DNA of 64,000 nucleotides from an uncultured Gammaproteobacteria bacterium (GTDB taxonomy: Bacteria > Patescibacteriota > Microgenomatia > JALYQM01): positions 520,630 to 584,629 of the forward strand of contig CAYOFQ010000001.1 of the NCBI GenBank assembly GCA_964403585.1, given 5' to 3'. Every line of letters begins with the position of its first letter. The stretch's first letter is position 1. Positions 22,362-53,190 of this stretch are shown here, piece by piece. Made by a program: the position numbers and the translations under genes. Under the pieces are notes generated by a model that saw nothing but the letters and a program-made list of their open reading frames with translations, was not told where the DNA came from and searched no databases.

Positions 22362-22470
22362 CCTATTGACATAGTTTTTCAATTTCTTCACAATAATTTT
22401 AGTAATAATTTAGTACATAAATTATCAGTTATTTAACGCTAAATTATTTTAAAGGGAGGTGAATTTACTC

Positions 22471-22536: not shown

Positions 22537-22546
22537 TTTTTCTTTA

Positions 22547-22594
22547 ATCCCTTAAGTCAAACTCGTTCAACTTGTCACTTAAGGGATTTTTTTA
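22547..22594 (+). terminator. Rho-independent terminator
   Basis: Hairpin atcccttaagt..acttaagggat followed by ttttttt. Confidence 0.55.
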
Positions 22595-22908
22595 TGGTTA
22601 AAAATCTTCCTTTGTGAAAATCTAACATTCTCCTTTACGAGTAATCACTCACCAAATAGATCTTAAAAGTACACTATCAATAAAATATATAATTAGACAT
22701 GTCTATTGATAGTAGATATACTTCACAAACCTTAAACTAAAGTTATATTCAATTTCCGGATTGAAATCTCATTATAGTAGGATAAGAATAAATACACATG
22801 AGCGAAGTATCATCTTCAAAACTCCGATCTTCAGAATATTTAAGAATAGTGGGGCGATAGCCACTAATAGAAAGAGCCGAACACAGGAGGTGGCCACAAA
22901 CGCTAAGT

Positions 22909-24018
22909 GTGCCGCCGGTATTAGCCCCGGTCCCTGTCAAAGTCAATACAGAATATTTTGTTACGCCGCGAAGAAGCGGCGTTTATTTTATCTCAGAAGA
23001 TACATTACATGAGCTTAAAGTGGAAACTAAACAGGCACATCGACGTCGCCGGGTCGAAACAGAATCCCGTGACCAGTTCATGGAGTTGTTAGCAGATATT
23101 GCCACCGATTCCGAAAACATGGACTCAGAATCAAAATTGCACGAAATACGCTGCTTGTATATGGCCAAATATTTAGCTGACCTGCTCGGCATCGATCCCG
23201 AGAGCCGGTTATATAAATACTTTTTAATTGGGGCACTGTATCACGATGAAGGCAAGGAGGCAGATAAAATAAAACACCGAATCCGTATCAAAGGGCTGTT
23301 AAGCGACGACGACCGGAAAGTCACCCACCTTCATCCGCTTCTTGGCACACTTCGCGCGCTCATGAACGGATTGGATCCCGCCGCGGAATACGCACTTACG
23401 CACCACGCATTTTATAACAGGGAAGTGGGGCATATGAAAGGATATCCCGATTTCGTCTCCAACCCCGAACTTATTGGAATAGTGTATGGCAATCCGGATG
23501 ACGAAACGTTTGAAAGCATGGCCGTTCATTTAGGGTTTACCCTTGCCGATCAGGCACAATATATTTTTCTTAAAGAACTGCTAAAAGCTATTGATGAATG
23601 TGACGCACTATGTTCTCGGCGAATATATCGTGACAGACGTCTAACAAAAGAAGAAATGGAAACACACCTTATCAATAACAATGGCATACGTTTCAACCCT
23701 GAAGTGGTAGCACTGATAGTAAATAATATCGATGAAATACGATTTTTTCATTACCTCATGTATCGCACGCATAATCATATGATTAGCGAAATGAATTTGC
23801 CACAGCACTGGACATTTATTGATGCTCCGGTCGAGTATGAACGCTCGTTCGGAGGTGAAATTTCAGCCCGCGCCACATCACCTCTTCGGGTCAGCTGGAC
23901 CGAAATGTCGGCAGCAAATATTCATCAGGTTATGGAACAAACTAATCTGCTGTATAACGATTTTGTCACTACCACCCGACCGAAGTATCGGACCCGCCGA
24001 CCGGTACAAAAACCATAG
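22909..24018 (+). CDS. HD-GYP domain phosphohydrolase (c-di-GMP phosphodiesterase family)
   Basis: HD motif LIGALYHDEGK. HD-GYP signature HHAFYNREVGHMKGYPD. GTG start at 22909, with an AGGAGG 18 nt upstream. TAG stop. Confidence 0.7.
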   Translation: MPPVLAPVPVKVNTEYFVTPRRSGVYFISEDTLHELKVETKQAHRRRRVETESRDQFMELLADIATDSENMDSESKLHEIRCLYMAKYLADLLGIDPESRLYKYFLIGALYHDEGKEADKIKHRIRIKGLLSDDDRKVTHLHPLLGTLRALMNGLDPAAEYALTHHAFYNREVGHMKGYPDFVSNPELIGIVYGNPDDETFESMAVHLGFTLADQAQYIFLKELLKAIDECDALCSRRIYRDRRLTKEEMETHLINNNGIRFNPEVVALIVNNIDEIRFFHYLMYRTHNHMISEMNLPQHWTFIDAPVEYERSFGGEISARATSPLRVSWTEMSAANIHQVMEQTNLLYNDFVTTTRPKYRTRRPVQKP

Positions 24019-36764: not shown

Positions 36765-36852
36765 AGTGATCCATATCACATACTCTCTTGATACGTTTGT
36801 TATCATAAACTTATGATAAATACATCCCTATGGAGGGGATGGGGAGGGAGAA

Positions 36853-37227
36853 ATGAAAAATAAATTTATTATCTGGGGATTCATGATTGCGTTTATTGGT
36901 CTGGGGCTGGGTTTCACCATTGGCAGAAGCGCCGATCCGTTTAAGATAGGACAAGTGGATACCCCTAAAAATGAAACTTCCATGAAGAATCCCCCGGACG
37001 AACAAAAAAACGACCAGGAAAACCGGAATACCGCAGGAGACTATGATCTGAATTTTATTAACGCAATGATTGCCCACCATGAAACAGCTATCGCTATGGC
37101 GACAGAAGCCAAAGAAAAAAGTCAGAAAGACGAAATAAAAAAAATGTCCGACGATATTATCAAAGCACAGTCCCGCGAAATAGAACACTTAAAGTTATGG
37201 AAGGAGGACTGGTATGGAGATCGATAA
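36853..37227 (+). CDS. DUF305 family protein (copper-locus associated)
   Basis: Signal/anchor plus DLNFINAMIAHHETAIAMA, the DUF305 HH motif. Confidence 0.7.
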   Translation: MKNKFIIWGFMIAFIGLGLGFTIGRSADPFKIGQVDTPKNETSMKNPPDEQKNDQENRNTAGDYDLNFINAMIAHHETAIAMATEAKEKSQKDEIKKMSDDIIKAQSREIEHLKLWKEDWYGDR

Positions 37228-37579
37228 AATTATTGTTATTTTAGCAGGCAGCTTATGGATACTTTTTATATATTCATACTTCCTCAACCATAAAGAAGAC
37301 GCAGTCGCAGTGATCGGCAGCAAAATTCATATCCGTGTCGATGGGGGATACAAACCGCAAACCATCTCGGTTAAAAAAGGTCAAAAAGTTCAGCTTGAGT
37401 TTGAGCGAACCGATCCCAGTTCTTGTCTGGAGGAGGTTGTGTTACCGGATTTCGGCAAGCGGCAGTTTCTCCCGTTAAATAAGAAAACAGAAATTGAGAT
37501 AGCGCCGAGCAAGACCGGTGAATATGAAATTTCTTGTGGTATGAATATGTTTCATGGAAAGATAGTTGTGGAGGACTAA
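37214..37579 (+). CDS. Membrane-anchored cupredoxin-like copper-binding protein
   Basis: N-terminal TM helix. Cys in SSCLEE. C-terminal C..M..H ligand set in ISCGMNMFHGKIVV. Confidence 0.65.
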   Translation: MEIDKIIVILAGSLWILFIYSYFLNHKEDAVAVIGSKIHIRVDGGYKPQTISVKKGQKVQLEFERTDPSSCLEEVVLPDFGKRQFLPLNKKTEIEIAPSKTGEYEISCGMNMFHGKIVVED

Positions 37580-37582
37580 TAA

Positions 37583-39805
37583 ATGAAAACGCAAACAATC
37601 CCCATCCTGGGGATGCACTGTGCATCATGTGCCGTGAGCATCGAACGGAAATTAAAAAAACTTCCCGGGATGCAAAGTGCTGCTGTAAACTATGCCTCAG
37701 AAAAAGCTGCGGTGGAATATGATCCTTTATCCTGTGATGAAGAAAAAATCGCCAGCACGGTCAAAAGTTTAGGATATACTGCGGTAATCGAAAGCCCGGT
37801 TGATACATCGGATGTTGTCGAAAAAGTAAAACGACAGGAACTTTCACAGCTAAAAACAAAATTAATCATCAGCGGAATACTTACAGTTTTCATTTTATTG
37901 GGAAGCTTTCCGCAAATATTCAGAATAACTCCAGCATTTTTGCAGGACCCGGTTTCACTGTTTGTGTTAGCTGTGCCGATTCAGTTTGTTATCGGATGGC
38001 AGTTTTATCGCAGTACCTATGCCTCATTAAAAAACCATACTGCCAATATGGATACATTAATCGCCTTTGGAACTACAGCGGCATTTCTATTTTCGACCGT
38101 CATGACTTTTTTCCCCGGAATAATGATGGAGTATGGTGTGGAAGGACATTATTTTGATGTTTCTTCACTGGTAATAACTTTGATTCTTTTGGGAAATTAT
38201 TTCGAATCGAATGCCAAGGGAAAAACGGGTCAGGCCATAAAAAAGTTACTTAATCTGCAGGCAAAAACAGCCAGGGTGATGAGAAACGGCAGCGAAATAG
38301 ATATTCCAATCGCACAGGTAATTATTGGTGACCAGATTATCGTACGGCCGGGGGATAAAATCCCTGTTGATGGCACAATTTCCGAAGGGCGAGGCACAAT
38401 TGATGAGTCAATGGTTACTGGCGAGTCATTACCAAAAGAAGTCTCCGCCGGAGAGGCAGTGGTTGGTGGCACGATCAATACGAATGGTTCATTTACCTTC
38501 GCGGCGACGAAAGTAGGCAGTCAAACGTTACTCTCCCAGATTATCGCACTGATCGAAAGTGCACAGAGTTCGAAAGCGCCCATGCAACGACTCGCCGACA
38601 CCATTTCATCCTACTTCGTTCCGATTGTACTGATGATTGCGGTCTTTACGTTTATGATTTGGTATGTAATCGGACCTGAACCACGATTATTATTCTCCGT
38701 GCTTAATGCGGTTGCTGTACTGGTAATCGCCTGTCCCTGCGCCATGGGATTGGCAACACCGACCGCAATTATGGTAGGCACTGGTAAAGGCGCTCAAAAC
38801 GGGATATTAATAAAAAATGCCGAAAAGCTTGAAACAGCGCACAAAGTCACCACCTTTATCTTTGACAAGACAGGCACATTAACAAAAGGTAAGCCGTCTG
38901 TATCTGAGGTAAAAATATATAATAATGCAGACGAAAATGAAGTACTAACCGCAGCGGCATCGCTAGAAAAAAACTCAACACATCCCCTGGCTGAAAGTAT
39001 TGTGCGCTATGCCCAATCAAAGAGCCTTGCATTGATAGCAGTCTCCGATACTCACTATATCCCGGGGATGGGGATCCAGGGTACAGTTGAGGATAAAGAA
39101 GTAGTTATTGGCGAAAAAATTATTCATCAAAAAAATATCGACTACTCTGCAGTTGTTTCGGATATAATCTTGCTGCAGTCACAAGCCCAAACAGTACTCC
39201 CGGTAGCAATTAATCAACAAATTGTTGGCTTAATCGCCATTTCGGACCCTGTAAAAGAAGAGTCATCCAAAGTAATTTCTCAGCTACACAAGTTAAAAAT
39301 AGAAGCTATCATGCTGACAGGTGATAACGAAAAAACAGCTGAGGCTATAGCCGGGAAAGTTGGTATAAAAAAGTTCATTGCCAATGTTCTCCCGCAGGAT
39401 AAAGAAAACGAAGTAAGAAAGCTGCAGCAACAAGGAAAAATTGTTGCCATGGTCGGGGACGGTATTAACGACGCACCTGCCCTGGCTGCTGCTGATATTG
39501 GTATCGCCATGGGTTCAGGAACAGATGTTGCCATCGAAACTTCCGACATCGTTTTGCTTGGAGGTGATATAAGTAAATTACCGCAGGCCATACGTTTGTC
39601 TAAACAGACAATGGCAACCATTAAACAGAACTTGTTCTGGGCCTTCGGGTATAACGTTATTTTAATACCGGTTGCTATGGGAGTACTGTATCCGGTGTGG
39701 GGTATGTTGCTTAATCCCGTTTTGGCATCAGTCGCAATGGCTCTAAGTTCAATTAGTGTTGTAATGAATTCGTTACGACTGAATTTAGTAAAATTAAACA
39801 AATAA
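37583..39805 (+). CDS. copA: Copper-translocating P1B-type ATPase
   Basis: HMA domain GMHCASCAVSIE. CPC motif ACPCAMGLATP. DKTGTLT and GDGINDAP motifs. 740 aa. Confidence 0.95.
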   Translation: MKTQTIPILGMHCASCAVSIERKLKKLPGMQSAAVNYASEKAAVEYDPLSCDEEKIASTVKSLGYTAVIESPVDTSDVVEKVKRQELSQLKTKLIISGILTVFILLGSFPQIFRITPAFLQDPVSLFVLAVPIQFVIGWQFYRSTYASLKNHTANMDTLIAFGTTAAFLFSTVMTFFPGIMMEYGVEGHYFDVSSLVITLILLGNYFESNAKGKTGQAIKKLLNLQAKTARVMRNGSEIDIPIAQVIIGDQIIVRPGDKIPVDGTISEGRGTIDESMVTGESLPKEVSAGEAVVGGTINTNGSFTFAATKVGSQTLLSQIIALIESAQSSKAPMQRLADTISSYFVPIVLMIAVFTFMIWYVIGPEPRLLFSVLNAVAVLVIACPCAMGLATPTAIMVGTGKGAQNGILIKNAEKLETAHKVTTFIFDKTGTLTKGKPSVSEVKIYNNADENEVLTAAASLEKNSTHPLAESIVRYAQSKSLALIAVSDTHYIPGMGIQGTVEDKEVVIGEKIIHQKNIDYSAVVSDIILLQSQAQTVLPVAINQQIVGLIAISDPVKEESSKVISQLHKLKIEAIMLTGDNEKTAEAIAGKVGIKKFIANVLPQDKENEVRKLQQQGKIVAMVGDGINDAPALAAADIGIAMGSGTDVAIETSDIVLLGGDISKLPQAIRLSKQTMATIKQNLFWAFGYNVILIPVAMGVLYPVWGMLLNPVLASVAMALSSISVVMNSLRLNLVKLNK

Positions 39806-39809
39806 AATT

Positions 39810-40865
39810 ATGAATGTTGATCTTATACCAATTATTGTCGCAGCTGTTACAACCGGAGGGTTGACTTGTTTTGCGGTCCAGGGAGGACTGTTAACATCTG
39901 CAATCGCTCAAATAAAAAAAAAGCAACCGACGGAAGAAAATCCCACGCCGGCATCCCAAGAGCAGTTAACGCAGAATGCGACCATCACATTTGTACTGGT
40001 CAAAATAATTGTGTACACAGTTCTCGGCGCATTACTGGGAGCGTTTGGATCGGTACTCTCGATTACTCCCCGTATGCAGGGGATTATTCAGTTACTTGCA
40101 GGCATCTATATGCTTGGCATAGCGTTAAACATGCTGAATGCGCATCCGGTATTCAGATATTTCCTCCTCCAGCCACCTAAATTTTTGCAACGTCTTATTC
40201 GCAAAACAGCCAAAGGGTCGAGTGAGTTCGCGACTCCGGCATTATTGGGATTAATGACGCTTTTTATTCCCTGTGGAACGACACTGGCCATGGAAGCATT
40301 GGCAATTGCCAGCGGGAATGCATTATCCGGAGCGTTGATAATGGGGACATTTGTGACATTCTCTTCGTGGATATTCATTGCCACCGGTTTTGCAGCAAAC
40401 TCAATTGAAAAGTATCTTGGGACTAATTTTGCCAGAATTACCGCAACATTGTTAATAGTGCTTGCTGTTCTTTCGATAAATGCTGCCGGTAATTTATTGG
40501 GATTCCCATACACTCTCAATTCGTTTGGCGGTCAGCAGACCGCAACCGAAACTAAATCTGAATCGGGAGCTGTTGCCGGGGCGACTAGTGAAAGCGGAAC
40601 AACGCAGAATGTCAAAATACTGGTGACGTCCAGCGGGTACCAGTCGGATACCACTACCTTAAAGAAAAATGTTCCGGTTGAACTGACCCTTGAATCAAAG
40701 AATGCATATAGTTGTGCCAGCGCCTTTTCAATTCCCAGCCTGAACAAAACGGTGATGTTACCGCCAACCGGAATCACCAAAATTCGTTTCACTCCACAAA
40801 AAAGTGGACGCTTGGTATACAGCTGTTCGATGGGAATGTATCGTGGGGATTTTTCTGTAATATAA
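39810..40865 (+). CDS. Polytopic membrane protein (DsbD_2/CcdA-like) fused to a C-terminal cupredoxin-like domain
   Basis: About 6 TM helices with LFIPCGTTL. C-terminal soluble domain ending YSCSMGMYRGDFSV, similar to the 37214 cupredoxin. Confidence 0.55.
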   Translation: MNVDLIPIIVAAVTTGGLTCFAVQGGLLTSAIAQIKKKQPTEENPTPASQEQLTQNATITFVLVKIIVYTVLGALLGAFGSVLSITPRMQGIIQLLAGIYMLGIALNMLNAHPVFRYFLLQPPKFLQRLIRKTAKGSSEFATPALLGLMTLFIPCGTTLAMEALAIASGNALSGALIMGTFVTFSSWIFIATGFAANSIEKYLGTNFARITATLLIVLAVLSINAAGNLLGFPYTLNSFGGQQTATETKSESGAVAGATSESGTTQNVKILVTSSGYQSDTTTLKKNVPVELTLESKNAYSCASAFSIPSLNKTVMLPPTGITKIRFTPQKSGRLVYSCSMGMYRGDFSVI

Positions 40866-40874
40866 GGAGGAAGT

Positions 40875-41084
40875 ATGAAAAAGACATTTAAAATTACCGG
40901 CATGCATTGTACCAGCTGTGCGATGTTAATCGACGGAGACCTTGAAGATACACATGGAGTACAGAGCGCAACCACTAATTACGCAAAGGCCGAAACAGAG
41001 ATAGACTTTAACGAAGCAATTATTTCAGATGAACAATTGGTCCAGGTTATTAAAAACCTTGGCTATCAGGCGGAGTACATATGA
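40875..41084 (+). CDS. copZ: Copper chaperone CopZ (HMA domain)
   Basis: 69 aa with GMHCTSCAMLIDGDLE. Confidence 0.85.
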   Translation: MKKTFKITGMHCTSCAMLIDGDLEDTHGVQSATTNYAKAETEIDFNEAIISDEQLVQVIKNLGYQAEYI

Positions 41085-41353
41085 CGAAAGACAAAGAGTT
41101 TAAAGACAAATTGTTACATAGATTAAAAATTGCGCGCGGGCATCTTACCAAAGTGATTGATATGGTTGAAAGCGATGAATATTGCCTGGATATCATTCAC
41201 CAGTCGCAGGCAATCCAGAAAGCGCTTAAGGAAGCCGACCATATAACACTTGAAAACCATTTGAACACGTGTGTTATCGATCAAATCAAAAAAGGAAAAA
41301 CCAAAAATTCAATCGAAGAAATCATGAAAGTAGTTAAAAAAAGCTATAATTAA
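41081..41353 (+). CDS. csoR: CsoR/RcnR-family metal-sensing transcriptional repressor
   Basis: 90 aa with LKIARGHLTKVIDMVE..YCLDIIHQSQAIQ..C (the C-H-C ligand pattern). 4-nt overlap with copZ. Confidence 0.8.
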   Translation: MTKDKEFKDKLLHRLKIARGHLTKVIDMVESDEYCLDIIHQSQAIQKALKEADHITLENHLNTCVIDQIKKGKTKNSIEEIMKVVKKSYN

Positions 41354-42131: not shown

Positions 42132-43569
42132 CAACAGCATTGTATACCACTACTTCACCATAGTTATTCGCAGAACATAATCCGGACGCTTCAGTACTAC
42201 AATTGGATTGGGTATACGCTCCGGTTTTAAAATATGCACCCGAATACGCTCGTGTCAGTGTATAGGCCGGAGTAGCAGCTCCATTGTAATAAATCATCGT
42301 CTTCCCGCCACTCGCTACAAAGCGTACCGTAAATCGCTTTCCCAAAGTATAGTTTGAATCCAAAGTATATACATGCTGGTCTCCTCCCGGGGGATTTGTA
42401 CCAACATTGACATATAAATTCGGCAGTTCAAGACGAATAACAATCACATCATCATCGGCATCATGAATCTGTCCGGCCACTACGTGTTTTTTAGTCTGGG
42501 GTACGGCAGTAATTGCCTGATCTAATGTCATCGTGTGCGTACCACTGGTATTATTCCAGGCTGCATTAAAGGTTCCGTTACTGACCATCTCCCGCAATTC
42601 CGAGCGGGGATATTTTGATCCGGACGTATGCGCTCCATTAACTGGTGCTCTGAAAATTACTCCGTTACGCGAGGAATTAACTTTAAACCATTCATCTGTA
42701 TATGTCGCCAGCGCGGGTTGCTTAATTTCTGTTGGACTACTCCCGTTTAGGGGACTCGGCAGTGTAATTTTCCAATTCGTTAGATTTAATACCTGCGCAG
42801 GCAGGTTCCCTGTTCCGCCGGTTGGTATCGGGGTAGAAGTTGGTGTAGGTGAAGGAGATCTCGATGGATTCGTTGTTGCGGTTGGTGACGGTGTTACCGT
42901 TGCTGAAGGTGAAGGAGTTATTGTTGCCGACGAACTGGGAAAAACAGTATTCCCTTTAATTGCCAAAATATACATTGAATATGCGGTGACAGTACTATCG
43001 GATGCCGGCCCAAAATTTACAACACCTGCAGAATTGGAGTTCCTCTTCCATATGTCATATACACCAATCAGCCCCTGCTCATTCTTACGGAGTACAAATT
43101 GATTCAAATTACTGAAATCATCAGTAGTCATCTTAGTATAGTGAGACTGAATCCATGAAGGGACGCTTTGACCGGGTATCTTGCGATAATAAATATACAG
43201 ATCATGAGAACTCTGAAAATTAATAGACCAGGATAAGGTGGGTAGATCTTTTAATCCGGCATTTTCAGTTTGTATAAATGTAAGATTGCTCGGCATCGAT
43301 CCCGGAACCACAAAAAAAGTATAGCGCGAATCACCCGCGTACATTTGTGTGCCGGCTTGAACACACTGTTCAGTAAACGTTTTCCCGGGCGGGGGTTGTA
43401 TGGCATATCCGGTCGAACAGCTGACAGCGTACTGCAAATCAACGGAATTAATTTTAAGCAAACTTCGGGCCTGAGTAAAAACAACAAGGCTCAAAACAAA
43501 TACAGTGAGAATTACTATCAGATGGCTCCGCATACGCTCAGTATGACAGTTGTTAGTTCTCGCGGTCAA
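42121..43569 (-). CDS. Secreted protein: N-terminal 'YRKIPGQ' domain, PT/PS linker, C-terminal PL7-like (alginate lyase 2 family) polysaccharide lyase domain
   Basis: Signal peptide. PL7 signature trio RSELRE, QIH and YFKTGAYTQ. N-terminal domain IYYRKIPGQSVPSW..FVLRKNEQGLIGVYDIW. Confidence 0.8.
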   Translation of the reverse strand: MTARTNNCHTERMRSHLIVILTVFVLSLVVFTQARSLLKINSVDLQYAVSCSTGYAIQPPPGKTFTEQCVQAGTQMYAGDSRYTFFVVPGSMPSNLTFIQTENAGLKDLPTLSWSINFQSSHDLYIYYRKIPGQSVPSWIQSHYTKMTTDDFSNLNQFVLRKNEQGLIGVYDIWKRNSNSAGVVNFGPASDSTVTAYSMYILAIKGNTVFPSSSATITPSPSATVTPSPTATTNPSRSPSPTPTSTPIPTGGTGNLPAQVLNLTNWKITLPSPLNGSSPTEIKQPALATYTDEWFKVNSSRNGVIFRAPVNGAHTSGSKYPRSELREMVSNGTFNAAWNNTSGTHTMTLDQAITAVPQTKKHVVAGQIHDADDDVIVIRLELPNLYVNVGTNPPGGDQHVYTLDSNYTLGKRFTVRFVASGGKTMIYYNGAATPAYTLTRAYSGAYFKTGAYTQSNCSTEASGLCSANNYGEVVVYNAVVTH

Positions 43570-43918
43570 GTAATTTTTTTACCTTTCCGAGCAGATCATC
43601 CATTTCGAACGGTTTAGTAATAAAATCATCGGCACCGGCTTTGTGTGCCGAACCGTCAACGTCACGGCTTGCTGATATCATCAGAATCGGAATATCCTTG
43701 GTATGAGGACTGTTTTTTAGGAACGAGCATATTTCCCGTCCATCCTGACCGGACATCCAAATATCCAGAATCAGCAAATCGGGAAATTCCTTTTGCATCT
43801 TATATATTGTTTCGCCATCAACCGTCGTGGAAACCTCGTAGTCTTCCAGCTCGAGCATCATTTGCAGTGCATCAATAATAGCCGGATCGTCATCGGCGAT
43901 CATAATTTTCTTAGCCAT
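43553..43918 (-). CDS. Single-domain response regulator (CheY-like)
   Basis: 121 aa with the IADDD and LILDIWMSGQDG motifs and a distal Lys. Confidence 0.85.
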   Translation of the reverse strand: MAKKIMIADDDPAIIDALQMMLELEDYEVSTTVDGETIYKMQKEFPDLLILDIWMSGQDGREICSFLKNSPHTKDIPILMISASRDVDGSAHKAGADDFITKPFEMDDLLGKVKKLLDREN

Positions 43919-43920
43919 AC

Positions 43921-45441
43921 CTAATGCTTTGCTCCTTCCTGAGCGATACTATCCAGTGGCTGGTATGAAAAATATGCTGTGAGAGGTAACGAAAAGTAGA
44001 AAGTGGATCCTTTACCTTCAGTGCTCTCAACCCATATCTTTCCGCCCTGTCGCTTAATAATTTCGCTCGAAATATACAATCCCAATCCAAGGCCGGGGAA
44101 AGTCTCTTTGCGCGGACCGCTGACCCGGAAGAACTGCTCAAATACTTTGTCTTTATTGTCTTCAGGGATACCGACACCTGAATCACGTACACTCAGTGTT
44201 ACACACTCTGGTGCAATTTCTGTCGCAATTTCTGTCGCAACTTCGATAGTATCAGCATACGGAGAATATTTAATTGCATTGGACAGTAAATTTGTTATAA
44301 CCTGCCCGGTACGCTCCCGGTCTCCAAAAACAGTAACCGGCTTGTTCGAGCGTATTTTAATAGTATGTCGTTCAGTTGTATGTTGTAATTCCCCGACAAT
44401 CTCTTCAACTAATGCATGGAACATGTACTCTTCCTGCTCAAATTGTAATTTTCCTGCCTGAATCTTGGTCACATCGAGAAGATCACCAATCAAATTAGTC
44501 AATTTATTGACCTGTGCATCCATTTTTCCCAACAACTCAACCGCTTTGGTATCACCTTTGCGTTTGAAAATAGTTTGCAGCACCTGACCATATGCTTTAA
44601 TGCTCGTTACCGGAGTTTTCAATTCATGACTCGCGATTCCGAGAAACTCATCTTTTTTCCGTTCGAGTTCTTTCCGTTCGGTAATGTCTGAGGCAATCGC
44701 AACAATTGTTTGCAGCTTGCCATCCGCGTCCAAAAGTGGAGTTGCCGAAACATTAACATCAATTAAACTGCCGTCTTTTCGTTGTCGCACCAGATCACGC
44801 GTAAACGATTTACCTTGGTGCAACAGCGCCATCAGTTCCTGAAATTCCCAAAAGCGATCCTGTTGGGCTATCGGGAGTATCTTTCCGACAACTTCATCTT
44901 CCTTCCAGCCAAAAATCTCCTCCGAAACCTTATTCCACATTGTCACAATACCGTCGCCATTTAAGACATAGATAGCTAGTGGCGAAGATTGAATAATCGT
45001 TTCCAGCGCGGAATTTGATTCTCGTAAAATACGTTCTGATGCTTTATGTTCAGTAATATTTTGTAATGTAATTAGTACGGATAATTCACCCTTGAACATA
45101 ATCCGCAGGGAGACAATCTCCACGTCAATAATACTTCCATCAAGTCGAATCAGCCGTTCATAGATCACGTCGGTAAACTGTTTGCCCTTGCTGTAAATAG
45201 CTGCCATTCGTTCTTTAACTATTTCCACAAAGTCAGGGTGAATAAAACGCATTACCGATTGGCCGATGACATCTTTTTTACTTTTTGCGCCAATCAGTTT
45301 AAGTGCGTATTTGTTTGCGTAAACAAGCACACCGCGGGTATGAATTACAATCGGCAGTGGAGTGATGTTCAACAACCGTTCGTACGAGACGTGAGTATCC
45401 TGATTCGGAGATTCCGCGGAAGGTAAAGCTGCCTTTTTCAT
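43921..45441 (-). CDS. Cytoplasmic multi-PAS sensor histidine kinase
   Basis: PAS repeats. H-box IASHELKTPVTSI. HATPase_c. 506 aa. Confidence 0.85.
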   Translation of the reverse strand: MKKAALPSAESPNQDTHVSYERLLNITPLPIVIHTRGVLVYANKYALKLIGAKSKKDVIGQSVMRFIHPDFVEIVKERMAAIYSKGKQFTDVIYERLIRLDGSIIDVEIVSLRIMFKGELSVLITLQNITEHKASERILRESNSALETIIQSSPLAIYVLNGDGIVTMWNKVSEEIFGWKEDEVVGKILPIAQQDRFWEFQELMALLHQGKSFTRDLVRQRKDGSLIDVNVSATPLLDADGKLQTIVAIASDITERKELERKKDEFLGIASHELKTPVTSIKAYGQVLQTIFKRKGDTKAVELLGKMDAQVNKLTNLIGDLLDVTKIQAGKLQFEQEEYMFHALVEEIVGELQHTTERHTIKIRSNKPVTVFGDRERTGQVITNLLSNAIKYSPYADTIEVATEIATEIAPECVTLSVRDSGVGIPEDNKDKVFEQFFRVSGPRKETFPGLGLGLYISSEIIKRQGGKIWVESTEGKGSTFYFSLPLTAYFSYQPLDSIAQEGAKH

Positions 45442-47426: not shown

Positions 47427-48572
47427 ATGAATAAATATGTCTCGCTCTCCTTCATTGTCCTCATTGTTATCGCGGCGTTAGCTGGCGGATATTATTTAGG
47501 TATGCGGCAGTCCCGCCCGGAACAAAACCCAACAGTCTCTCAAAGAGATTCTGCTCCGACTTCTCCAGATTCAGCAACTGAAGAACAATCTGCTTCATCA
47601 GAGTCTGCCACGGTGACCACCGCCACTCCCAAAGCCAGATCCTCCATTAATATGAAAGCGTTGCCGCTCGGCGACAACAAAGTTACCACAACTCCCAAAG
47701 TGGGATATATCTATTCCTGCCAAAAACAGTCGGACGAAAACGGTGGTGGAGCGGGTGTTGATGGTCCATGGATTAATAAAACAACCAATACCTGGGATTA
47801 CACACAAAAAGTAACCGTGAGCGGAGAAGTAATCTGGAAAAATGCCAAGTGGAGTGTTACAGAAAATGGAGCAACCCGAACACTTACAGGAAACGGATTG
47901 CCCTCACATAAAACCGGCACCTATCCTATTCAATCATCAGACGATGCATACAAGTACGATCGCAACCCGAACTCTATTAAAGAACAAACACTGAGTCTGA
48001 ATCTCCCCACCACTCCTACCCAACTTGCTTCAGCTGAATGTGTGGGCGGAGAAGTCGGCATTATGCTCACAGGTATACCGATTTTTAACGGCTTCGATGC
48101 CGATAGCCGCGATGCTGCCGCTCATGAAATTCAGGACGACTGTGCTGGCCACCCGCAGGTAAGCGGTCAATATCACTATCACAGTCCAAGTAAATGTTTG
48201 AAAGACACTCCTGCCGCTACCGAGCACTCCGCCCTCGTTGGCTACGCCTTTGACGGGTTCGGAATATACGGAATTAAAGGACAAAACGGTGTTGAACTCT
48301 CCACACAGGATCTGGATGTCTGTCATGGTCATACGCATGAAATAGTGTGGGACGGTCAAAAGAAAACCATGTACCATTATCATCTCACCAATGATTTCCC
48401 GTATAGTGTTAGCTGTTTCCGCGGCAAAAAAGCAGTCAACGGCCCGCTTAGCGGTAAAACCGAGGGTATGCAACAGGGCGGACAGCAATCCGGTCAGAGC
48501 CAAATGTCCGGCCAGGGTCCCGGCGGGCAGCGCATGCCACCACCTCCGGGCGGTGCTCCACCTCAAAATTAG
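47427..48572 (+). CDS. Secreted YHYH-motif protein with a Gln/Gly-rich C-terminal tail
   Basis: Signal anchor. GQYHYHSP, HGHTHE and YHYHLTNDFPY motifs. C-terminal QQGGQQSGQSQ..PPPPGGAPP. Confidence 0.6.
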   Translation: MNKYVSLSFIVLIVIAALAGGYYLGMRQSRPEQNPTVSQRDSAPTSPDSATEEQSASSESATVTTATPKARSSINMKALPLGDNKVTTTPKVGYIYSCQKQSDENGGGAGVDGPWINKTTNTWDYTQKVTVSGEVIWKNAKWSVTENGATRTLTGNGLPSHKTGTYPIQSSDDAYKYDRNPNSIKEQTLSLNLPTTPTQLASAECVGGEVGIMLTGIPIFNGFDADSRDAAAHEIQDDCAGHPQVSGQYHYHSPSKCLKDTPAATEHSALVGYAFDGFGIYGIKGQNGVELSTQDLDVCHGHTHEIVWDGQKKTMYHYHLTNDFPYSVSCFRGKKAVNGPLSGKTEGMQQGGQQSGQSQMSGQGPGGQRMPPPPGGAPPQN

Positions 48573-48605
48573 AGAAAAGTCCAACAAATCTATATCCTAT
48601 AGTAA

Positions 48606-48634
48606 TTGACAAAATGATAAAGTTGTGGTATTAT
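48606..48634 (+). promoter_or_regulatory. Near-consensus sigma70 promoter with an extended -10 (TTGACA, 17 nt, TGgTATTAT)
   Basis: Hexamers, spacing and the TGn element read directly. Downstream is a ~420 nt leader with no credible ORF before the ATG at 49054. Confidence 0.65.
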
Positions 48635-48677
48635 GGGCAGTAACATCACGCTCAAAAACGCGCACCTTTACAACTGA

Positions 48678-48699
48678 TTTTTCTCAGCAAAGAGACATA
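48678..48699 (+). repeat. Direct repeat R1 copy 1 (tttttctcagcaaagagacata)
   Basis: An exact 22-nt match recurs at 48843-48864. Confidence 0.8.
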
Positions 48700-48709
48700 G
48701 TTACTAATT

Positions 48710-48792
48710 CCGTTCGCTTCACCCTACACAACATCGAAAAACCGCGCCGCCCCTCAGACTTGCTCTATTTACTATGTTTGTTTGGTGAGAAA
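48710..48792 (+). repeat. Direct repeat R2 copy 1 (~80 bp, about 70% identical to 49673-49751)
   Basis: Shared blocks ccgtt..cgcttcaccct and cgc.ccgcc.ctcagacttg.tct.tt..tatgttt.ttt..tgagaaa. Confidence 0.7.
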
Positions 48793-48842
48793 GATCAGTG
48801 TTGGTGTACTACACGAATTAATCTGCCCTTTAAAAACTACAT

Positions 48843-48864
48843 TTTTCTCAGCAAAGAGACATAA
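48843..48864 (+). repeat. Direct repeat R1 copy 2
   Basis: Exact repeat of 48678-48699. Confidence 0.8.
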
Positions 48865-48937
48865 TACACGTCTTCTGCTTCGATATCCGTCTCGAAAAGC
48901 AGGAACAGTATCTATAACTCTCTTGCTCTTAATGGAT

Positions 48938-48994
48938 GTATCAGGACGCACCTGCAATTGAGAACGTCACTCGATTTCACATGCGTCCTGATAC
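48938..48994 (+). promoter_or_regulatory. Perfect 13-bp inverted repeat (gtatcaggacgca / tgcgtcctgatac) with a 31-nt spacer in the leader upstream of the 49054 ORF
   Basis: Read directly from the sequence. Candidate RNA hairpin or dimeric regulator operator. Confidence 0.5.
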
Positions 48995-49053
48995 CAACCC
49001 AGCCCAAACTATTGTCTTCCGAAACCAACAAAATTCAAAGGAGGAACACCACG

Positions 49054-49656
49054 ATGACCACCGCCCAAGCCCTAACCGCACTGGCGGACTACACGCTCGC
49101 ACCGACGTTCATCAACTATGTACTCAGTCAGGTTTCCTATCCTGACCAATACACCGCGGATTCCCTGGAGCCGATGATGGCGTTGCTCGAAGATCACTTC
49201 CGAACGAGAACATCAATCTCGTTCAACGGGATCTTTGCCAGAGCAGCAATCGCGGCCCTCGAAATGGAAGTGTGTGGCGACACCGGAATGCGGACATCCA
49301 AAGGTAAAAGCCCATACATCTTCGAGTTCGACGGCGGTTACACCCGTCAAGTCACCATCTGGATGCCGCGTTCGAACATGTCGGCCTTCATCGGCGAAGA
49401 CGGACGGACAATCCGCCCGATCCAAGTCGCCCTTGAAAGGCTGAGTGTTTTGCTCAAGGTTGAAGAGTTCGTGGGGTTCGGCCCGTACGTGAGTGTTTCT
49501 CAACAACACTTCGCCTGGCGGGTCAGCCTTGAGCCGGTTCCGGAACGTCATCACGGCCCGAAGTACGCTATTCTTGACCAGAGTATCGGCAAAGTCGCCG
49601 CGTTCGCCGCACAAATGGCCGAACGTAACGGCTTTCGCCCTGTCATCTGGGAATAG
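49054..49656 (+). CDS. Hypothetical protein encoded by a GC-rich (apparently foreign) ORF
   Basis: RBS AAAGGAGG lies 9 nt upstream of the ATG. GC and codon usage (GCC/CGC/GGC rich) are visibly higher than in flanking genes. TAG stop. The ORF is bracketed by repeats R1 and R2. Confidence 0.6.
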   Translation: MTTAQALTALADYTLAPTFINYVLSQVSYPDQYTADSLEPMMALLEDHFRTRTSISFNGIFARAAIAALEMEVCGDTGMRTSKGKSPYIFEFDGGYTRQVTIWMPRSNMSAFIGEDGRTIRPIQVALERLSVLLKVEEFVGFGPYVSVSQQHFAWRVSLEPVPERHHGPKYAILDQSIGKVAAFAAQMAERNGFRPVIWE

Positions 49657-49672
49657 CAGTCACCATTCATAA

Positions 49673-49751
49673 CCCGTTCCGCACCCGCTTCACCCTTGAT
49701 CACCGCTCCGCCTCTCAGACTTGTTCTTATTATGTTTCTTTATTGAGAAAA
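49673..49751 (+). repeat. Direct repeat R2 copy 2
   Basis: Imperfect copy of 48710-48792, located immediately after the GC-rich ORF and upstream of the 49778 gene. Confidence 0.7.
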
Positions 49752-49777
49752 ATCCCCAAACGTTCTACCATCGCAGT

Positions 49778-50134
49778 ATGAACACAACAACCGAAATTCC
49801 GGATATTTGCCCGGCGTGCCAAACATTAAACCACCCATCCGATACGTTTTGTTCGAAGTGCGGCAAACAACTGCACGAGTCGGCGCTCTCAACCACACCG
49901 TCAAAACAAATAATAATTTATCTCGTGAGCTTTTTCCTCGCGCCTTTCGGACTGTGGTGGGGGATGAAATATCTTCGTTCAGCAGATAAAAAAGTTAAAA
50001 GAATCGGCATTATTTCAATTATCTTAACCGTGCTCGCCCTGCTCCTCTCGGTAGCCCTGGTCGGGTCAATTATGAATACGGTTAATAGCCAACTGAATAC
50101 CAATATCGAGCAATATAACAGTCTTGGCATTTAG
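49778..50134 (+). CDS. Zinc-ribbon plus two-TM membrane protein
   Basis: N-terminal CPAC..CSKCG ribbon, then two hydrophobic helices. The ATG at 49778 is preferred over the track's upstream alternative start. Confidence 0.55.
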   Translation: MNTTTEIPDICPACQTLNHPSDTFCSKCGKQLHESALSTTPSKQIIIYLVSFFLAPFGLWWGMKYLRSADKKVKRIGIISIILTVLALLLSVALVGSIMNTVNSQLNTNIEQYNSLGI

Positions 50135-50224
50135 GTGATTAGGGCGTACAATAGCATAATCACCCGCACCTTATAACAAAGTAACACAGGCAGCTGCTAC
50201 TTGGCTGTCATCTTTTTTGCGCAT

Positions 50225-50605
50225 ATGTTGAAAACGTATAAAACTTTTTATTCATTCATGTTCCGTTACAAATGGCGTTTTATCGCCTTTGTAATAACCT
50301 TAATTTGCTATTCCGTTGCCGGAAGTATTCAGCCGTATTTTTACAAACTGTTTTTAGATGCGATACCTGACAAAAATTACGATGTGCTGCTTAATATTCT
50401 GATCATGTTTATCGGGCTGCGCATTCTCCAGGTATTTCTGGATATGGCCACCTATTATTTAAGTGACGTGGTAACCTTTGCTGCCGGTCGTGATGCCCGG
50501 ATAACCATTTTTAAAAAAATCCAGGATTTGGACTTTGCTTATCATGCCAGTAAAAGTACCGGAGCATTGATCAGTGCCGTAAAAAGAGGAGATGGTGCTT
50601 TTTAA
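50225..50605 (+). pseudogene. Truncated N-terminal fragment of an ABC exporter (MsbA-like transmembrane domain)
   Basis: ABC_membrane helix 1-3 pattern (YKWRFIAFVITLI..FYKLFLDAI..RILQVFL). Stops after 127-134 aa. No ATPase domain follows. Confidence 0.5.
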
Positions 50606-50655: not shown

Positions 50656-53190
50656 TTGGGAATTGCTGCACTCGCGCACGGCATTAACATGTTCAATTTC
50701 CCGTATTACGAAAACGATGAGGGTGTGTACATGTCCCAGGCCTGGTCGTTTAGTAATGAGGGAAAATTAGCTCCGTACACCTATTGGTATGACCACGCGC
50801 CGCTTGGTTGGATACTTATTTCTTTGTGGACAACACTCACCGGCGGATTTTACACCTTCGGATTCTCCCTCAACTCAGGGAGGGTATTTATGCTTGTGCT
50901 CCACCTTATTTCATCCGTATATCTCTATTTAATAACGAAGAAACTTACCGGCAGCAAACTATCGGGGCTCGCGGCCATCCTTTTTTTCTCCCTTACCCCG
51001 CTCGGAATATATTTCCAGCGTCGTGTTTTGCTCGACAATATCATGATCATGTGGGTGCTCATTTCACTCTATTATCTCCTGGAGTATAAAAACAGGCTGC
51101 TGTACATACTCTTTAGTGCCGTTGCGTTAGCGTTTGCCATTCTGTCAAAAGAAAACGCCATTTTTTTTATTCCGTTGTTCTTCTACATTGTTTACTCGCA
51201 AGCACACAAACGCCACCGGCTTTTTGCGGTGACGCAATGGCTGTTAATAATCGGCTCAATTGTTTCGTTATATTTTGTCTACGCCCTGGTAAAAGGGGAG
51301 TTTTTTCCGGCCTACTCAACCTTAGGCGGGAACACTGAGCACGTTAGTTTACTCGAAACACTTAAATATCAATCCAGTCGAACCGGCGGGAGTATTCTAG
51401 ATACCGAAAACAGTTTGTTCTGGCAATACATGCGGCAATGGAGCGCCGAAGATTGGGTAATAATCTACGGCGGTGTTGCAGCCATGCTGTTTAATTTTCT
51501 GCTCGCTATTCGTAATTTTAATGCCCGGGTCGTAGCACTTTTTGCCGCCTCAATGTTCTTTTTCCTGATGCGCGGAGGGATTGTTATTGAATTCTATGTC
51601 ATTCCGCTGATCCCGTTATTGGCAGTTAACCTGGCGTATGCATTGACCGCTGTAGCCAATGTCTTTGCAAATATTGCACAGCGCGAACATTTGCACAATT
51701 CATTGCTTGGAGCCGCCACACTAGTCTTCAGTGTAGTTATGCTTTCTCAAGCCGGAACTGTTCGGGATAATCGCAATTTATATACATCCAATCAGGCACA
51801 ACCGCAGCGTGATGCCGTCGAGTGGATCAAGGCAAACCGTTCGCCCGACGAATTTATTGTCATCGATAACTATGGCTATTTGGATTTACGGAAAGATCCT
51901 AATAAGCAATTCAATAATGCCGACTGGTATTGGAAAATCGATACCGATAAAGACATTCTGCAAAAAAAGCTCGGTAACGATCCGAACAACATTGATTATT
52001 TAGCCGTGACGCCGCAAATGGAATTTGATATCAAACAAAGTGGGCTGAGTATTGTCGGTAAAGCACTGGGGGATTCCCGCCCTGTCACGCAGTTTTACCG
52101 CGACGGCTGGGGCGTAACTATTTGGGGAGTACATACACCGCAACGTAACTTAATGGCTGCGTGGGAAAGTTACAAACGCGATTTTATCAAAGACGGGCAG
52201 GTGATTGATCCCAGCGGAAAAATTACTACTTCGGAAGGTCAGGCATATGCTTTATTACGTGCAGTGTGGATGAAAGACCAGCCGGCTTTCTTTCAAATTC
52301 ATAAATGGACCAAGGATCATCTCTATCGGGATAACAATTTACTGCAATGGCGTTACAGCAAAGAAAATCCTGCCGCAAACGATCCCGGCTCAGCTACCGA
52401 TGCCGATCAGGATTACGCGCTTGCCCTCTTATTTGGATCGCGGGTCTGGAATGATTCTGGATTCCAAAAAGAAGCGGTTTCCATGATTCGGGCTATCTGG
52501 CAGTACGAAACCGCCGCACTTGGCAGCAAGGTCTACAGTCTTGCCGGAGAGTGGGGCGATAAACCTGATGAGCTGGTTGTAAATCCTTCCTATCTTTCAC
52601 CGTCTCATTACCGCATTTTTGCCCAGGTGGATCCCTCAAATGACTGGAAAAAGGTTGTCGATTCATCCTATGAGGTCTTAGACGGATGTACACACTCGCC
52701 GCTGGACGCCGGCCGCGGCGTTTTGCCGGCCGAATGGTGCGCTATTAACAAAGCAAGCGGAGTCTATAGTAAACCGTCTCAATCAGACTTTTCTACAGAA
52801 TACGGATACAATGCTTTCAGAGTACCGTGGCGGGTAATGCTCGATTATCAATGGAATAGGGATCCGCGTGCTCGCGATTATCTTCGCTCATTGGTATTCC
52901 TGTCCGATCAGTGGAACACGCATAAAAAGTTGTCCGCAGTATATACACATGACGGCCAGGTGCAAGAAGAATACGAATCAGCCGCTGCCTATGCCGGGAA
53001 TCTCGGTTATTTCATGCTTACAAGCCCCACCACTGCTAAAACAATCTATACTACCAAAATTGCTGCGAAGTTCTATGAGAACGAAAAAGAATCCTATTGG
53101 GAAGACCCGGACAATTATTACACCCAAAACATTACCTGGTTTGGTACCGCGTTATACTCCAATCAGCTGCCGAATTTATGGACCAAGTAA
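50656..53190 (+). CDS. Fusion protein: N-terminal GT-C fold membrane glycosyltransferase (PMT/ArnT-like) and C-terminal glycoside hydrolase family 8 domain
   Basis: Roughly 9-11 TM helices. The first-loop DE motif (YENDEGVYMSQAW) is typical of GT39/GT83. GH8 motifs TSEGQAYAL (catalytic Glu) and ATDADQDYALALLFG (GH8 signature) are present. Confidence 0.7.
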   Translation: MGIAALAHGINMFNFPYYENDEGVYMSQAWSFSNEGKLAPYTYWYDHAPLGWILISLWTTLTGGFYTFGFSLNSGRVFMLVLHLISSVYLYLITKKLTGSKLSGLAAILFFSLTPLGIYFQRRVLLDNIMIMWVLISLYYLLEYKNRLLYILFSAVALAFAILSKENAIFFIPLFFYIVYSQAHKRHRLFAVTQWLLIIGSIVSLYFVYALVKGEFFPAYSTLGGNTEHVSLLETLKYQSSRTGGSILDTENSLFWQYMRQWSAEDWVIIYGGVAAMLFNFLLAIRNFNARVVALFAASMFFFLMRGGIVIEFYVIPLIPLLAVNLAYALTAVANVFANIAQREHLHNSLLGAATLVFSVVMLSQAGTVRDNRNLYTSNQAQPQRDAVEWIKANRSPDEFIVIDNYGYLDLRKDPNKQFNNADWYWKIDTDKDILQKKLGNDPNNIDYLAVTPQMEFDIKQSGLSIVGKALGDSRPVTQFYRDGWGVTIWGVHTPQRNLMAAWESYKRDFIKDGQVIDPSGKITTSEGQAYALLRAVWMKDQPAFFQIHKWTKDHLYRDNNLLQWRYSKENPAANDPGSATDADQDYALALLFGSRVWNDSGFQKEAVSMIRAIWQYETAALGSKVYSLAGEWGDKPDELVVNPSYLSPSHYRIFAQVDPSNDWKKVVDSSYEVLDGCTHSPLDAGRGVLPAEWCAINKASGVYSKPSQSDFSTEYGYNAFRVPWRVMLDYQWNRDPRARDYLRSLVFLSDQWNTHKKLSAVYTHDGQVQEEYESAAAYAGNLGYFMLTSPTTAKTIYTTKIAAKFYENEKESYWEDPDNYYTQNITWFGTALYSNQLPNLWTK

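What the first reader, a model, noticed from the sequence alone, without database searches (positions are those of the whole stretch)
48606..49053. Near-perfect sigma70 promoter feeding a ~420-nt non-coding leader full of repeats
TTGACA-17 nt-TGgTATTAT is the best promoter match I can see in the window. The predicted TSS is at about 48641, and the first credible start codon (with an AAAGGAGG RBS) is at 49054. The leader contains two copies of a 22-nt repeat, an 80-bp repeat and a 13-bp perfect inverted repeat. It might be a cis-regulatory RNA or riboswitch-like leader, one or two sRNAs, or the remnant of an integration site.
Basis: seen in the sequence. Interest (0 to 1): 0.55.

Follow-up and report, generated by a model that had tools for sequence, protein, structure and literature searches.

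The report
Structured leader of an orphan gene
The interval is the strong promoter and roughly 413-nt untranslated leader of a very rare orphan protein gene: half of the leader is a conserved, hairpin-rich element also found in one distant uncultured bacterium, and the other half is a local duplication, so it is a real but modest candidate for a new regulatory RNA.

Summary
TTGACA-17-TGgTATTAT lies at 48606-48634, and the first credible start codon (AAAGGAGG, ATG 49054) opens a 200-aa ORF, "X". The repeat is a perfect 23-mer ("box A", 48677 and 48841). The 13-bp inverted repeat is the base of a 57-nt hairpin (48938-48994). The "80-bp repeat" is a 56-nt, 80% repeat whose second copy (49702-49754) lies beyond X.

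The two closest relatives join the YHYH gene directly to the Zn-ribbon gene, so promoter, leader and X form a ~1.2-kb lineage-specific module. One more distant MAG has the same layout: box A, leader, a ~27%-identical X homologue, inverted box B, Zn-ribbon gene.

Window 48830-49053 aligns to that leader at 63% identity, against 32-49% at silent codon positions. The long hairpin keeps every pair through five double changes. Window 48641-48830 is a genome-specific duplication: a second box A plus a diverged copy of the X/Zn-ribbon spacer.

Box B is the conserved -35 and upstream region of the probably leaderless Zn-ribbon promoter. A read-through RNA would therefore pair A with B across the whole ORF.

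There is no Rfam, defence, phage or plasmid match. The best reading is an undescribed structured 5' UTR. An operator role or recombination scars are not excluded. Only two examples exist.

The parts
48606..48634 (+). Sigma-70-type promoter TTGACA-17-TGgTATTAT; predicted TSS about 48639-48642
   Evidence: Consensus match only; no transcript data.
48641..49053 (+). Predicted 5' UTR (~413 nt) of orphan gene X
   Evidence: No credible ORF or SD inside it. RNA fold -109.6 kcal/mol, z = -6.3.
48665..48699 (+). Box A1 (perfect 23-nt core 48677-48699) with its upstream flank. This is the extra, genome-specific copy.
   Evidence: Its upstream flank matches L014 128-171 (86%).
48741..48797 (+). B1 region: diverged copy (80%) of the X/Zn-ribbon intergenic region, ending in inverted box B1 (48773-48797)
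48661..48810 (+). A1:B1 long hairpin (about 35-bp imperfect stem, ~75-nt loop). Specific to this genome.
   Evidence: duplex -40.6 kcal/mol.
48827..48866 (+). Box A2. 27 nt (48841-48867, ATTTTTCTCAGCAAAGAGACATAATAC) are identical in the distant MAG locus. It marks the start of the conserved leader.
48870..48906 (+). Hairpin P2 (UUCUGC...GCAGGA outer stem conserved, interior different)
   Evidence: Both genomes fold a hairpin here, but the alignment register is uncertain.
48918..48930 (+). CTCTCTTGCTCTT block, invariant between the genomes. Predicted P1 partner of the 3' half of box A2.
   Evidence: 9 pairs, never vary.
48938..48994 (+). Hairpin P3 (13-bp perfect base, internal loop, 7-bp tip), conserved with compensatory changes
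   Evidence: 5 pairs changed on both sides, 2 on one side (to G-U), none broken.
48995..49036 (+). C/A-rich, G-poor linker between P3 and the SD; contains a local anti-SD (UCUUCC)
   Evidence: Read from the sequence.
49037..49056 (+). SD AAAGGAGG and ATG of X (block CAAAATTCRAAGGAGRAAC conserved)
49054..49656 (+). Orphan gene X (200 aa). GC3 is 0.67 against 0.41-0.51 in the neighbouring genes.
49702..49771 (+). Native upstream region of the Zn-ribbon gene: CGCCTCTCAGA block, inverted box B2 (49728-49753), -35 TTGAGA (49743-49748), -10 TACCAT (49766-49771)
   Evidence: Conserved in L005 (which has no X) and in L014.
49778..50134 (+). Zn-ribbon/2-TM gene; its ATG starts 6 nt after the -10 and there is no SD, so the mRNA is probably leaderless

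Best explanation
The interval is the promoter and long 5' untranslated leader of orphan gene X (49054-49656). X, its leader and its promoter form a ~1.2-kb lineage-restricted module between the YHYH gene and a Zn-ribbon membrane-protein gene.

The leader has two parts. (1) The gene-proximal ~225 nt (48830-49053) is a conserved structured RNA element. It consists of box A, helix P1 (3' half of box A with CUCUCUUGCU), hairpin P2, the long hairpin P3, a C/A-rich linker and the SD. (2) The promoter-proximal ~190 nt (48641-48830) is a duplication specific to this genome. It holds a second box A plus a diverged copy of the X/Zn-ribbon spacer, and it folds into a ~35-bp hairpin.

Proposed mechanism (inferred): the leader controls X after transcription starts. 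The SD is held in weak local helices, either with UUUCUC of box A or with UCUUCC 19 nt upstream. Box A can instead pair over 25 bp with box B, which lies beyond the ORF, or with B1 in this genome. That gives a long duplex that would free the SD and/or create an RNase III-type processing site bracketing the X message.

Shown: the sequence features, the presence/absence pattern among relatives, conservation above silent-site level, and compensatory changes in P3. Inferred: transcription from 48606, the RNA-level role of box A, SD occlusion, and processing.
For: The promoter is the best intergenic match in 64 kb.

L003 and L005, the closest relatives (Zn-ribbon protein 65-68% identical), join the YHYH gene to the Zn-ribbon gene over 15 and 79 nt, with no X and no leader.

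L008/L014 is more distant (56%) but has box A, a ~210-nt leader, SD, an X homologue, inverted box B and the Zn-ribbon gene in the same order.

The leader is 153/241 = 63% identical, with perfect 27-nt and 13-nt blocks. Third codon positions of the flanking genes are only 32% and 49% identical, and X itself is ~27% identical at the protein level.

In the consensus fold all 48 pairs form in both sequences. P3 has 5 double changes and 2 G-U changes with none broken. Slid controls give 0-2 double changes and 39-51% of cells paired.

Fold z-scores are -6.0 (window 48835-49062) and -3.1 (L014).

In full-length folds of both genomes, box A pairs with box B across the ORF (-26.8 and -25.8 kcal/mol). 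No terminator-like site lies between X and box B.
Against: There are no transcript data. Only two sequences exist, so covariation rests on a single comparison.

P1 and the anti-SD helix never vary, which says nothing for or against them. The P2 'double changes' depend on a 2-nt register offset in the alignment and are not counted.

Folding energies do not favour the sense strand, so the hairpins could equally be DNA-level palindromes.

Perfect conservation of 23-27-nt boxes across genomes whose silent sites are saturated is more typical of a protein-binding site than of a helix.

The X homologue in the MAG is frameshifted, either a pseudogene or an assembly error.

The genome-specific half of the leader may have no function.
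Confidence: 0.5

Rival explanations
1. Boxes A and B act on DNA. They are operators for one dimeric DNA-binding protein that co-regulates X and the Zn-ribbon gene. The hairpin potential of A with B is a by-product of two copies of one site in opposite orientation.
For: The box is quasi-palindromic (ATTTTTCT-N6-AGAAACAT). In L005 it matches its own reverse complement at 17/23.

Each box is perfectly conserved in its own variant: B in three genomes, A in two plus the duplicate.

Box B overlaps the -35 of a conserved promoter.

In L014 a divergently transcribed gene starting MRSFKQLSLEEREIIYAM (HTH-like, by inspection only) abuts box A.
Against: No regulator gene lies next to the locus in the window, and no L[ST]xEER-type N-terminus occurs anywhere in it.

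No further copy of the box occurs in 64 kb even at 6 mismatches beyond chance, so there is no regulon.

A1 and A2 lie at +36 and +200 of the strong promoter, which is odd for an operator.

This reading does not explain P3 or the other conserved leader blocks.
Confidence: 0.2
2. The repeats are scars of how the X module arrived and rearranged: a mobile or recombined cassette bounded by inverted boxes A and B, with an internally deleted 'empty' copy A1-B1 in front. They have no present regulatory role.
For: X is absent from the closest relatives and present in a more distant genome.

GC3 of X is 0.17-0.2 above that of its neighbours in both genomes.

Inverted boxes bracket X in both genomes.

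A1-B1 keeps the left box and ~56 nt of the right inner end, as a deletion derivative would.

The neighbourhood shows other rearrangements: a truncated ABC gene and a missing acyltransferase gene.
Against: No integrase, transposase or recombinase family turned up in the Pfam-scanned ORFs within about 13 kb.

No target-site duplication is visible on reading the flanks.

Box B with its whole region is present in L005, which lacks X and box A. There it serves as the promoter region of the Zn-ribbon gene.

The available contigs all have the same arrangement.

There is no DNA or protein match in phage, plasmid or viral collections.

Scars would not stay 100% identical over 27 nt while silent sites saturate.
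Confidence: 0.15
3. The leader encodes a separate small RNA, for example a type III antitoxin-like or other trans-acting RNA ending at hairpin P3, with X as its partner protein.
For: The layout is superficially similar: a strong promoter, repeats, a stable hairpin, then a ~200-aa ORF of unknown function with atypical composition.
Against: The repeats are not tandem (164 nt apart; TRF finds nothing).

The second repeat copy is absent in the other genome.

P3 is followed by a C/A-rich tract, not a U-tract.

X matches no PADLOC, Pfam or PHROG family.
Confidence: 0.05
4. A ligand-sensing riboswitch.
For: It is a long, conserved, structured leader with the SD in predicted helices.
Against: There is no Rfam match at gathering score, and the two sub-threshold matches at E<=10 are to unrelated families.

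The architecture is mostly long regular hairpins rather than a multi-helix junction with conserved unpaired nucleotides.

The downstream gene gives no hint of a metabolite. With only two examples, no aptamer core can be defined.
Confidence: 0.05

Closest known systems
Structured cis-regulatory 5' UTRs that occlude the Shine-Dalgarno sequence (RNA thermometers, protein-binding leaders, riboswitch expression platforms)
   Same: It lies between a promoter and the SD on the sense strand. It is conserved above neutral level and hairpin-rich, and the SD falls in predicted weak helices.
   Different: It matches no curated family. No sensor is identifiable. The distribution is tiny (two genomes). Half of the leader in this genome is a recent local duplication.
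5'-UTR/3'-UTR base-pairing within one mRNA: S. aureus icaR (PMC3868564) and B. subtilis hbs (PMC5737220)
   Same: There is extended complementarity between the leader and sequence beyond the stop codon, 25 of 26 positions pairing, so the ORF is bracketed by a duplex long enough for RNase III.
   Different: In icaR the 3' UTR pairs with the SD itself. Here the 5' partner is box A, about 190 nt upstream of the SD. The 3' partner doubles as the -35 and upstream region of the next gene's promoter and exists in a relative that lacks X. Nothing has been tested experimentally.
Type III toxin-antitoxin loci (ToxIN, AbiQ/antiQ, CptIN, TenpIN)
   Same: Promoter, repeated non-coding sequence and a hairpin, followed by a ~170-200-aa ORF.
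   Different: There is no tandem array of ~34-36-nt repeats, no terminator, and no similarity of X to the toxin families.
Inverted-repeat-bounded mobile cassettes (IS/MITE pairs, integron cassettes)
   Same: Inverted boxes flank a compositionally foreign gene with patchy distribution, and a short gene-less A1-B1 copy lies next to it.
   Different: No recombinase was found. There is no target duplication, no attC-type cores were recognised, and one 'end' is a native promoter region in a genome without the cassette.

Membership tests
Any Rfam 15 family (riboswitches, leaders, sRNAs) | Covariance-model match at the family's gathering score | tested here: not met
   0 matches at gathering score in the whole window. 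At E<=10 in 48500-49900 there are only two sub-threshold matches to unrelated families (CRISPR-DR57 at 15.5 bits, SNORD104 at 14.3 bits).
Structured cis-regulatory 5' UTR (generic class) | Lies between a promoter and the SD/start of the regulated gene, on the sense strand | tested here: met
   Promoter at 48606-48634, SD at 49037-49044, ATG at 49054. The promoter is a consensus match only.
Structured cis-regulatory 5' UTR (generic class) | Sequence conserved above the neutral level in homologous loci | tested here: met
   63% identity over 241 aligned columns, against 32% and 49% at third codon positions of the flanking genes. Perfect 27-nt and 13-nt blocks. Only one other locus exists.
Structured cis-regulatory 5' UTR (generic class) | Helices supported by covariation | tested here: inconclusive
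   P3 has 5 double and 2 single compatible changes with none broken. However, there are only two sequences, P1 and the anti-SD helix are invariant, the P2 register is uncertain, and there is no strand preference.
Structured cis-regulatory 5' UTR (generic class) | The region is transcribed as part of the mRNA and its structure changes expression | not testable with these tools
   No transcriptome or reporter data are available.
Intramolecular 5'/3'-UTR pairing (icaR/hbs type) | Extended complementarity between the leader and sequence 3' of the ORF on the same transcript | tested here: inconclusive
   The complementarity is met (-26.8 kcal/mol in the window, -25.8 in L014; MFE of the full transcript pairs A with B). 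No terminator-like site lies between X and box B. Co-transcription itself has not been shown.
Type III toxin-antitoxin | Tandem array of ~34-36-nt direct repeats upstream of the toxin gene, separated from it by a terminator | tested here: not met
   TRF finds no array. The two 23-mers are 164 nt apart. No hairpin-plus-U-tract lies in the leader.
Type III toxin-antitoxin | Toxin belongs to the ToxN/AbiQ/CptN/TenpN families | tested here: not met
   No PADLOC, Pfam or PHROG match for X even at E<=1.
IS element / MITE | Terminal inverted repeats plus a target-site duplication, with a transposase in the autonomous copy | tested here: not met
   Inverted repeats are present. However, the flanks of A1/B1 are themselves inverted rather than direct, none is evident for A2/B2, X has no transposase domain, and box B stands alone in L005.
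Integron gene cassette | Nearby intI integrase and attC sites with R''/R' cores | tested here: not met
   No integrase family was found among ORFs scanned within about 13 kb. The attC cores were only inspected by eye, not modelled.

The most novel reading that the evidence does not exclude
Boxes A and B and the conserved leader form a fixed non-coding 'frame' around a hypervariable, compositionally foreign orphan gene. It would be either a new kind of ORF-bracketing RNA duplex in which the 3' arm doubles as the next gene's promoter, or a recombination slot that exchanges or inverts its cargo, in a poorly sampled uncultured lineage.
Probability: 0.12. Interest if true: 0.7.

Novelty: new member of a known kind. 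Interest (0 to 1): 0.4.

Why it matters
If the leader is transcribed and functional, it is an undescribed structured 5' UTR motif from an uncultured lineage that has no relatives at 90% identity even for SecA or AtpA. It is attached to a protein family with just two known members, one that evolves far faster than its own non-coding leader.

That inversion, with conserved RNA and fluid protein, together with a 25-bp pairing that brackets the ORF and re-uses the neighbouring gene's promoter region, would be a compact case for studying how newly acquired genes are wired into host regulation.

If it is not functional, the locus is an ordinary indel with duplication scars.

Tried and rejected
Rfam at gathering score (whole window) and at E<=10 (locus): nothing meaningful. 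tRNA/tmRNA scan: none, so there is no tRNA-linked integration site. TRF: no tandem repeats.

Protein X:
- Pfam, PADLOC and PHROGs: no family.
- Word-indexed search of 5.8 billion proteins: only itself.
- Full HMMER search of 1.84 billion representatives: only summed weak matches to SprB-repeat proteins, judged spurious.
- Profile of the two X proteins: again only those two.
- PDB profile search: one marginal match to the N-terminal region of the M23 peptidase 2gu1, E = 0.004. Kept as a lead only.
- AlphaFold without an alignment: pLDDT 34, unusable.

Phage, plasmid and viral collections, searched by DNA, protein and box-A pattern: nothing.

Scans of genome and metagenome collections for the degenerate 23-mer gave one true relative (L008). 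The remaining hits, in Lachnospira and Bacteroidota, have unrelated flanks.

Six further YHYH homologues were fetched and none is syntenic. Look-up of the exact Zn-ribbon protein found no record, so the gene was apparently not called.

The strand-asymmetry test of hairpin energies was not decisive.

The idea that box A is itself the X promoter was considered (cTGAtt-16-CATAAT, 8/12). It falls below the scan threshold, so it is left open rather than adopted.

Full report
**1. What is in the sequence**

The interval 48573-49053 is intergenic. It lies between a YHYH-domain gene (47427-48572, +) and a 200-aa ORF, here called X (49054-49656, +).

- The promoter match is TTGACA (48606), a 17-nt spacer and TGgTATTAT (to 48634). 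That is 11/12 with an extended -10.
- Across the 64 kb only one other site scores as well (10533, - strand), and it lies inside an atpH-like ORF.
- Shuffles give 1.8 sites of >=11/12 per window and 0.11 with TG.
- The match is therefore credible because of its position, not by statistics alone.
- X has AAAGGAGG nine bases before its ATG.

It extends to 37 nt at 89%. The 13-bp inverted repeat is the base of a 57-nt hairpin, P3, at 48938-48994.

No 80-bp repeat exists inside the interval. The nearest thing is a 56-nt, 80% direct repeat (48741-48796 vs 49702-49754), and its second copy lies after X.

The order is therefore A1 - B1 region - A2 - leader - X - B2 region - Zn-ribbon gene (49778-50134).

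**2. Comparison with relatives**

X is an orphan.

- A search of 5.8 billion proteins found only itself.
- A full HMMER pass over 1.84 billion representatives added only spurious repeat-protein matches.
- Contigs from other samples that carry X are identical to the window.

The nearest relatives reachable through the YHYH protein (67-68% identity) keep the upstream synteny (alginate lyase, two Band_7 genes, YHYH). In them YHYH joins the Zn-ribbon gene directly, with 15 nt between in L003 and 79 nt in L005. Promoter, leader and X are thus a ~1.2-kb indel relative to these genomes.

The 79-nt spacer of L005 is homologous to window 49709-49781 (79%). It includes box B letter for letter, a -35 TTGAGA inside the box, a 17-nt spacer, a -10 TACTAT/TACCAT, and the ATG 6-7 nt later with no SD. 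Box B is therefore the native, conserved upstream region of a probably leaderless Zn-ribbon gene. It is not something brought in with X.

A pattern scan of one genome per species for the degenerate 23-mer found one true relative, a MAG contig (L008, also fetched as L014). Read on its minus strand it has this order:

- box A, with 27 nt identical to A2;
- a ~210-nt leader;
- an SD;
- an ORF;
- box B, inverted;
- the Zn-ribbon gene, 56% identical (more distant than L003/L005 at 65-68%);
- a full-length ABC exporter.

Its ORF aligns with X at ~27% identity with conserved termini, once a frameshift in the MAG is bridged. A profile built from the two proteins finds only those two.

In both genomes X has GC3 about 0.17-0.2 above its neighbours.

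**3. Anatomy of the leader**

Window 48820-49062 aligns with L014 115-393 at 153 identical of 241 aligned columns (63%). Third codon positions of the flanking Zn-ribbon and ABC genes are 32% and 49% identical.

The perfectly conserved blocks are box A, CTCTCTTGCTC, the P3 stem cores and CAAAATTCRAAGGAG.

The single box A of L014 shares its upstream flank with A1 (86% over 44 nt) and its downstream flank with A2 (92% over 38 nt). The 141 nt between A1 and A2 are therefore an insertion or duplication specific to this genome. Their core is an 80% copy of the genome's own X/Zn-ribbon spacer.

A1 and B1 form a ~35-bp hairpin (-40.6 kcal/mol).

**4. Evidence for structure**

Both leaders fold well below shuffled controls (z = -6.0 and -3.1). 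The consensus fold has these elements:

- P1, the 3' half of box A paired with CUCUCUUGCU;
- P2;
- P3;
- a closing helix, UUUCUC of box A paired with the SD.

On the two-sequence alignment all 48 pairs form in both sequences. Slid controls pair only 39-51% of cells.

Only P3 carries usable covariation: five pairs changed on both sides, two changed to G-U, none broken. The P2 counts rest on a 2-nt register offset, and P1 and the SD helix never vary.

Energies on the two strands do not favour the sense strand. Hairpin selection is supported, but its RNA nature is inferred from the promoter, the gene orientation and the SD.

In full-length folds of both genomes box A pairs with box B across the ORF, 25 of 26 positions. 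No terminator-like site separates X from box B.

**5. Interpretation**

The best-supported reading (about 0.5) is an undescribed structured 5' UTR of X. It would act on translation and/or mRNA stability, and this genome has expanded it by a local duplication.

The proposed switch is box A pairing locally (with the SD occluded) versus pairing with box B or B1 (a long duplex and possible RNase III substrate). This is an inference, not a demonstrated mechanism.

Rival readings:

- **Operator (0.2).** Boxes A and B are operators of one dimeric regulator. The box is quasi-palindromic, each variant is perfectly conserved, and box B overlaps a -35. Against this, no regulator gene and no other site occur in 64 kb.
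- **Recombination scars (0.15).** This is supported by the patchy distribution, the foreign composition and a neighbourhood with other rearrangements. It is weakened by the lack of any recombinase hit, the lack of a target duplication, box B standing alone in L005, and conservation far above silent sites.
- **Separate sRNA or type III antitoxin-like RNA (0.05).**
- **Ligand riboswitch (0.05).**

**6. Relation to known systems**

It works most like SD-occluding structured leaders and, if A:B pairing is real, like the icaR and hbs 5'/3'-UTR interactions (PMC3868564, PMC5737220).

It is not a member of any Rfam family or of the type III toxin-antitoxin systems. The tests run here also give no support for IS/MITE or integron membership, although the attC cores were only inspected by eye.

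**7. Verdict**

The feature is real and mostly as described. I classify it as a new member of a known kind (a structured leader). Evidence comes from only two genomes and there are no expression data, so interest is moderate at 0.4.

Noticed in passing
window 50201-50605: This is a 134-aa N-terminal fragment of an ABC exporter, 74% identical to the start of the 576-aa protein in L014; L003 also has the full-length gene. The gene is truncated here, and a PMT_2+GH8 fusion gene (50656-53190) follows. The Acyl_transf_3 gene that sits between the Zn-ribbon and ABC genes in L003/L005 is missing.
   Followed up: partly
window 49743-49780; L005 1560-1600; L014 1075-1112: A conserved promoter, TTGAGA-17-TACCAT/TACTAT, ends 6-7 nt before the ATG of the Zn-ribbon gene, and there is no SD. 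The mRNA is probably leaderless. The gene was not on record in the protein collection, so it was apparently not called.
   Followed up: partly
L014 385-953 (= L008 3369-2801, - strand): The only homologue of X is split by a frameshift: the N-terminal part is in the frame of 385-861 and the C-terminal part in the frame of 735-953. It is either a pseudogene or a MAG assembly error.
   Followed up: partly
L014 1-54 (- strand), at the contig end: This is the start of a gene reading MRSFKQLSLEEREIIYAM, transcribed divergently from box A and cut by the contig end. It looks like an HTH N-terminus (a regulator, or an IS30-type transposase); that guess is untested.
   Followed up: no
window 10505-10533 (- strand): The only other 11/12+TG promoter match in the window (TGGACA-18-TATAAT) lies inside an atpH-like ORF (10248-10586) of an ATP synthase operon. 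It is either an internal promoter or chance.
   Followed up: partly
window 48595-48602: CTATAGTA, just upstream of the -35, equals the sequence that abuts the Zn-ribbon ATG in L003 and L005. It may be a relic of the old YHYH/Zn-ribbon junction, or coincidence.
   Followed up: no
window 49054-49656 (residues ~80-162 of X): A profile of the two X proteins gives a marginal match (E = 0.004) to residues 136-219 of PDB 2gu1, the N-terminal region of an M23 zinc peptidase. Pfam sees nothing.
   Followed up: partly
window 22001-23000: GC falls to 0.33 here against ~0.44 elsewhere, in a gap between ORFs. Two 10/12 promoter-like matches lie at 22694 and 22722.
   Followed up: no
window 36800-41300 and 43553-45441: Relative to L003 the window carries other lineage-specific insertions in the same syntenic block: a P-type ATPase with DsbD_2-cupredoxin genes, and a response regulator with a PAS histidine kinase. 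The X module is therefore one of several indels.
   Followed up: no
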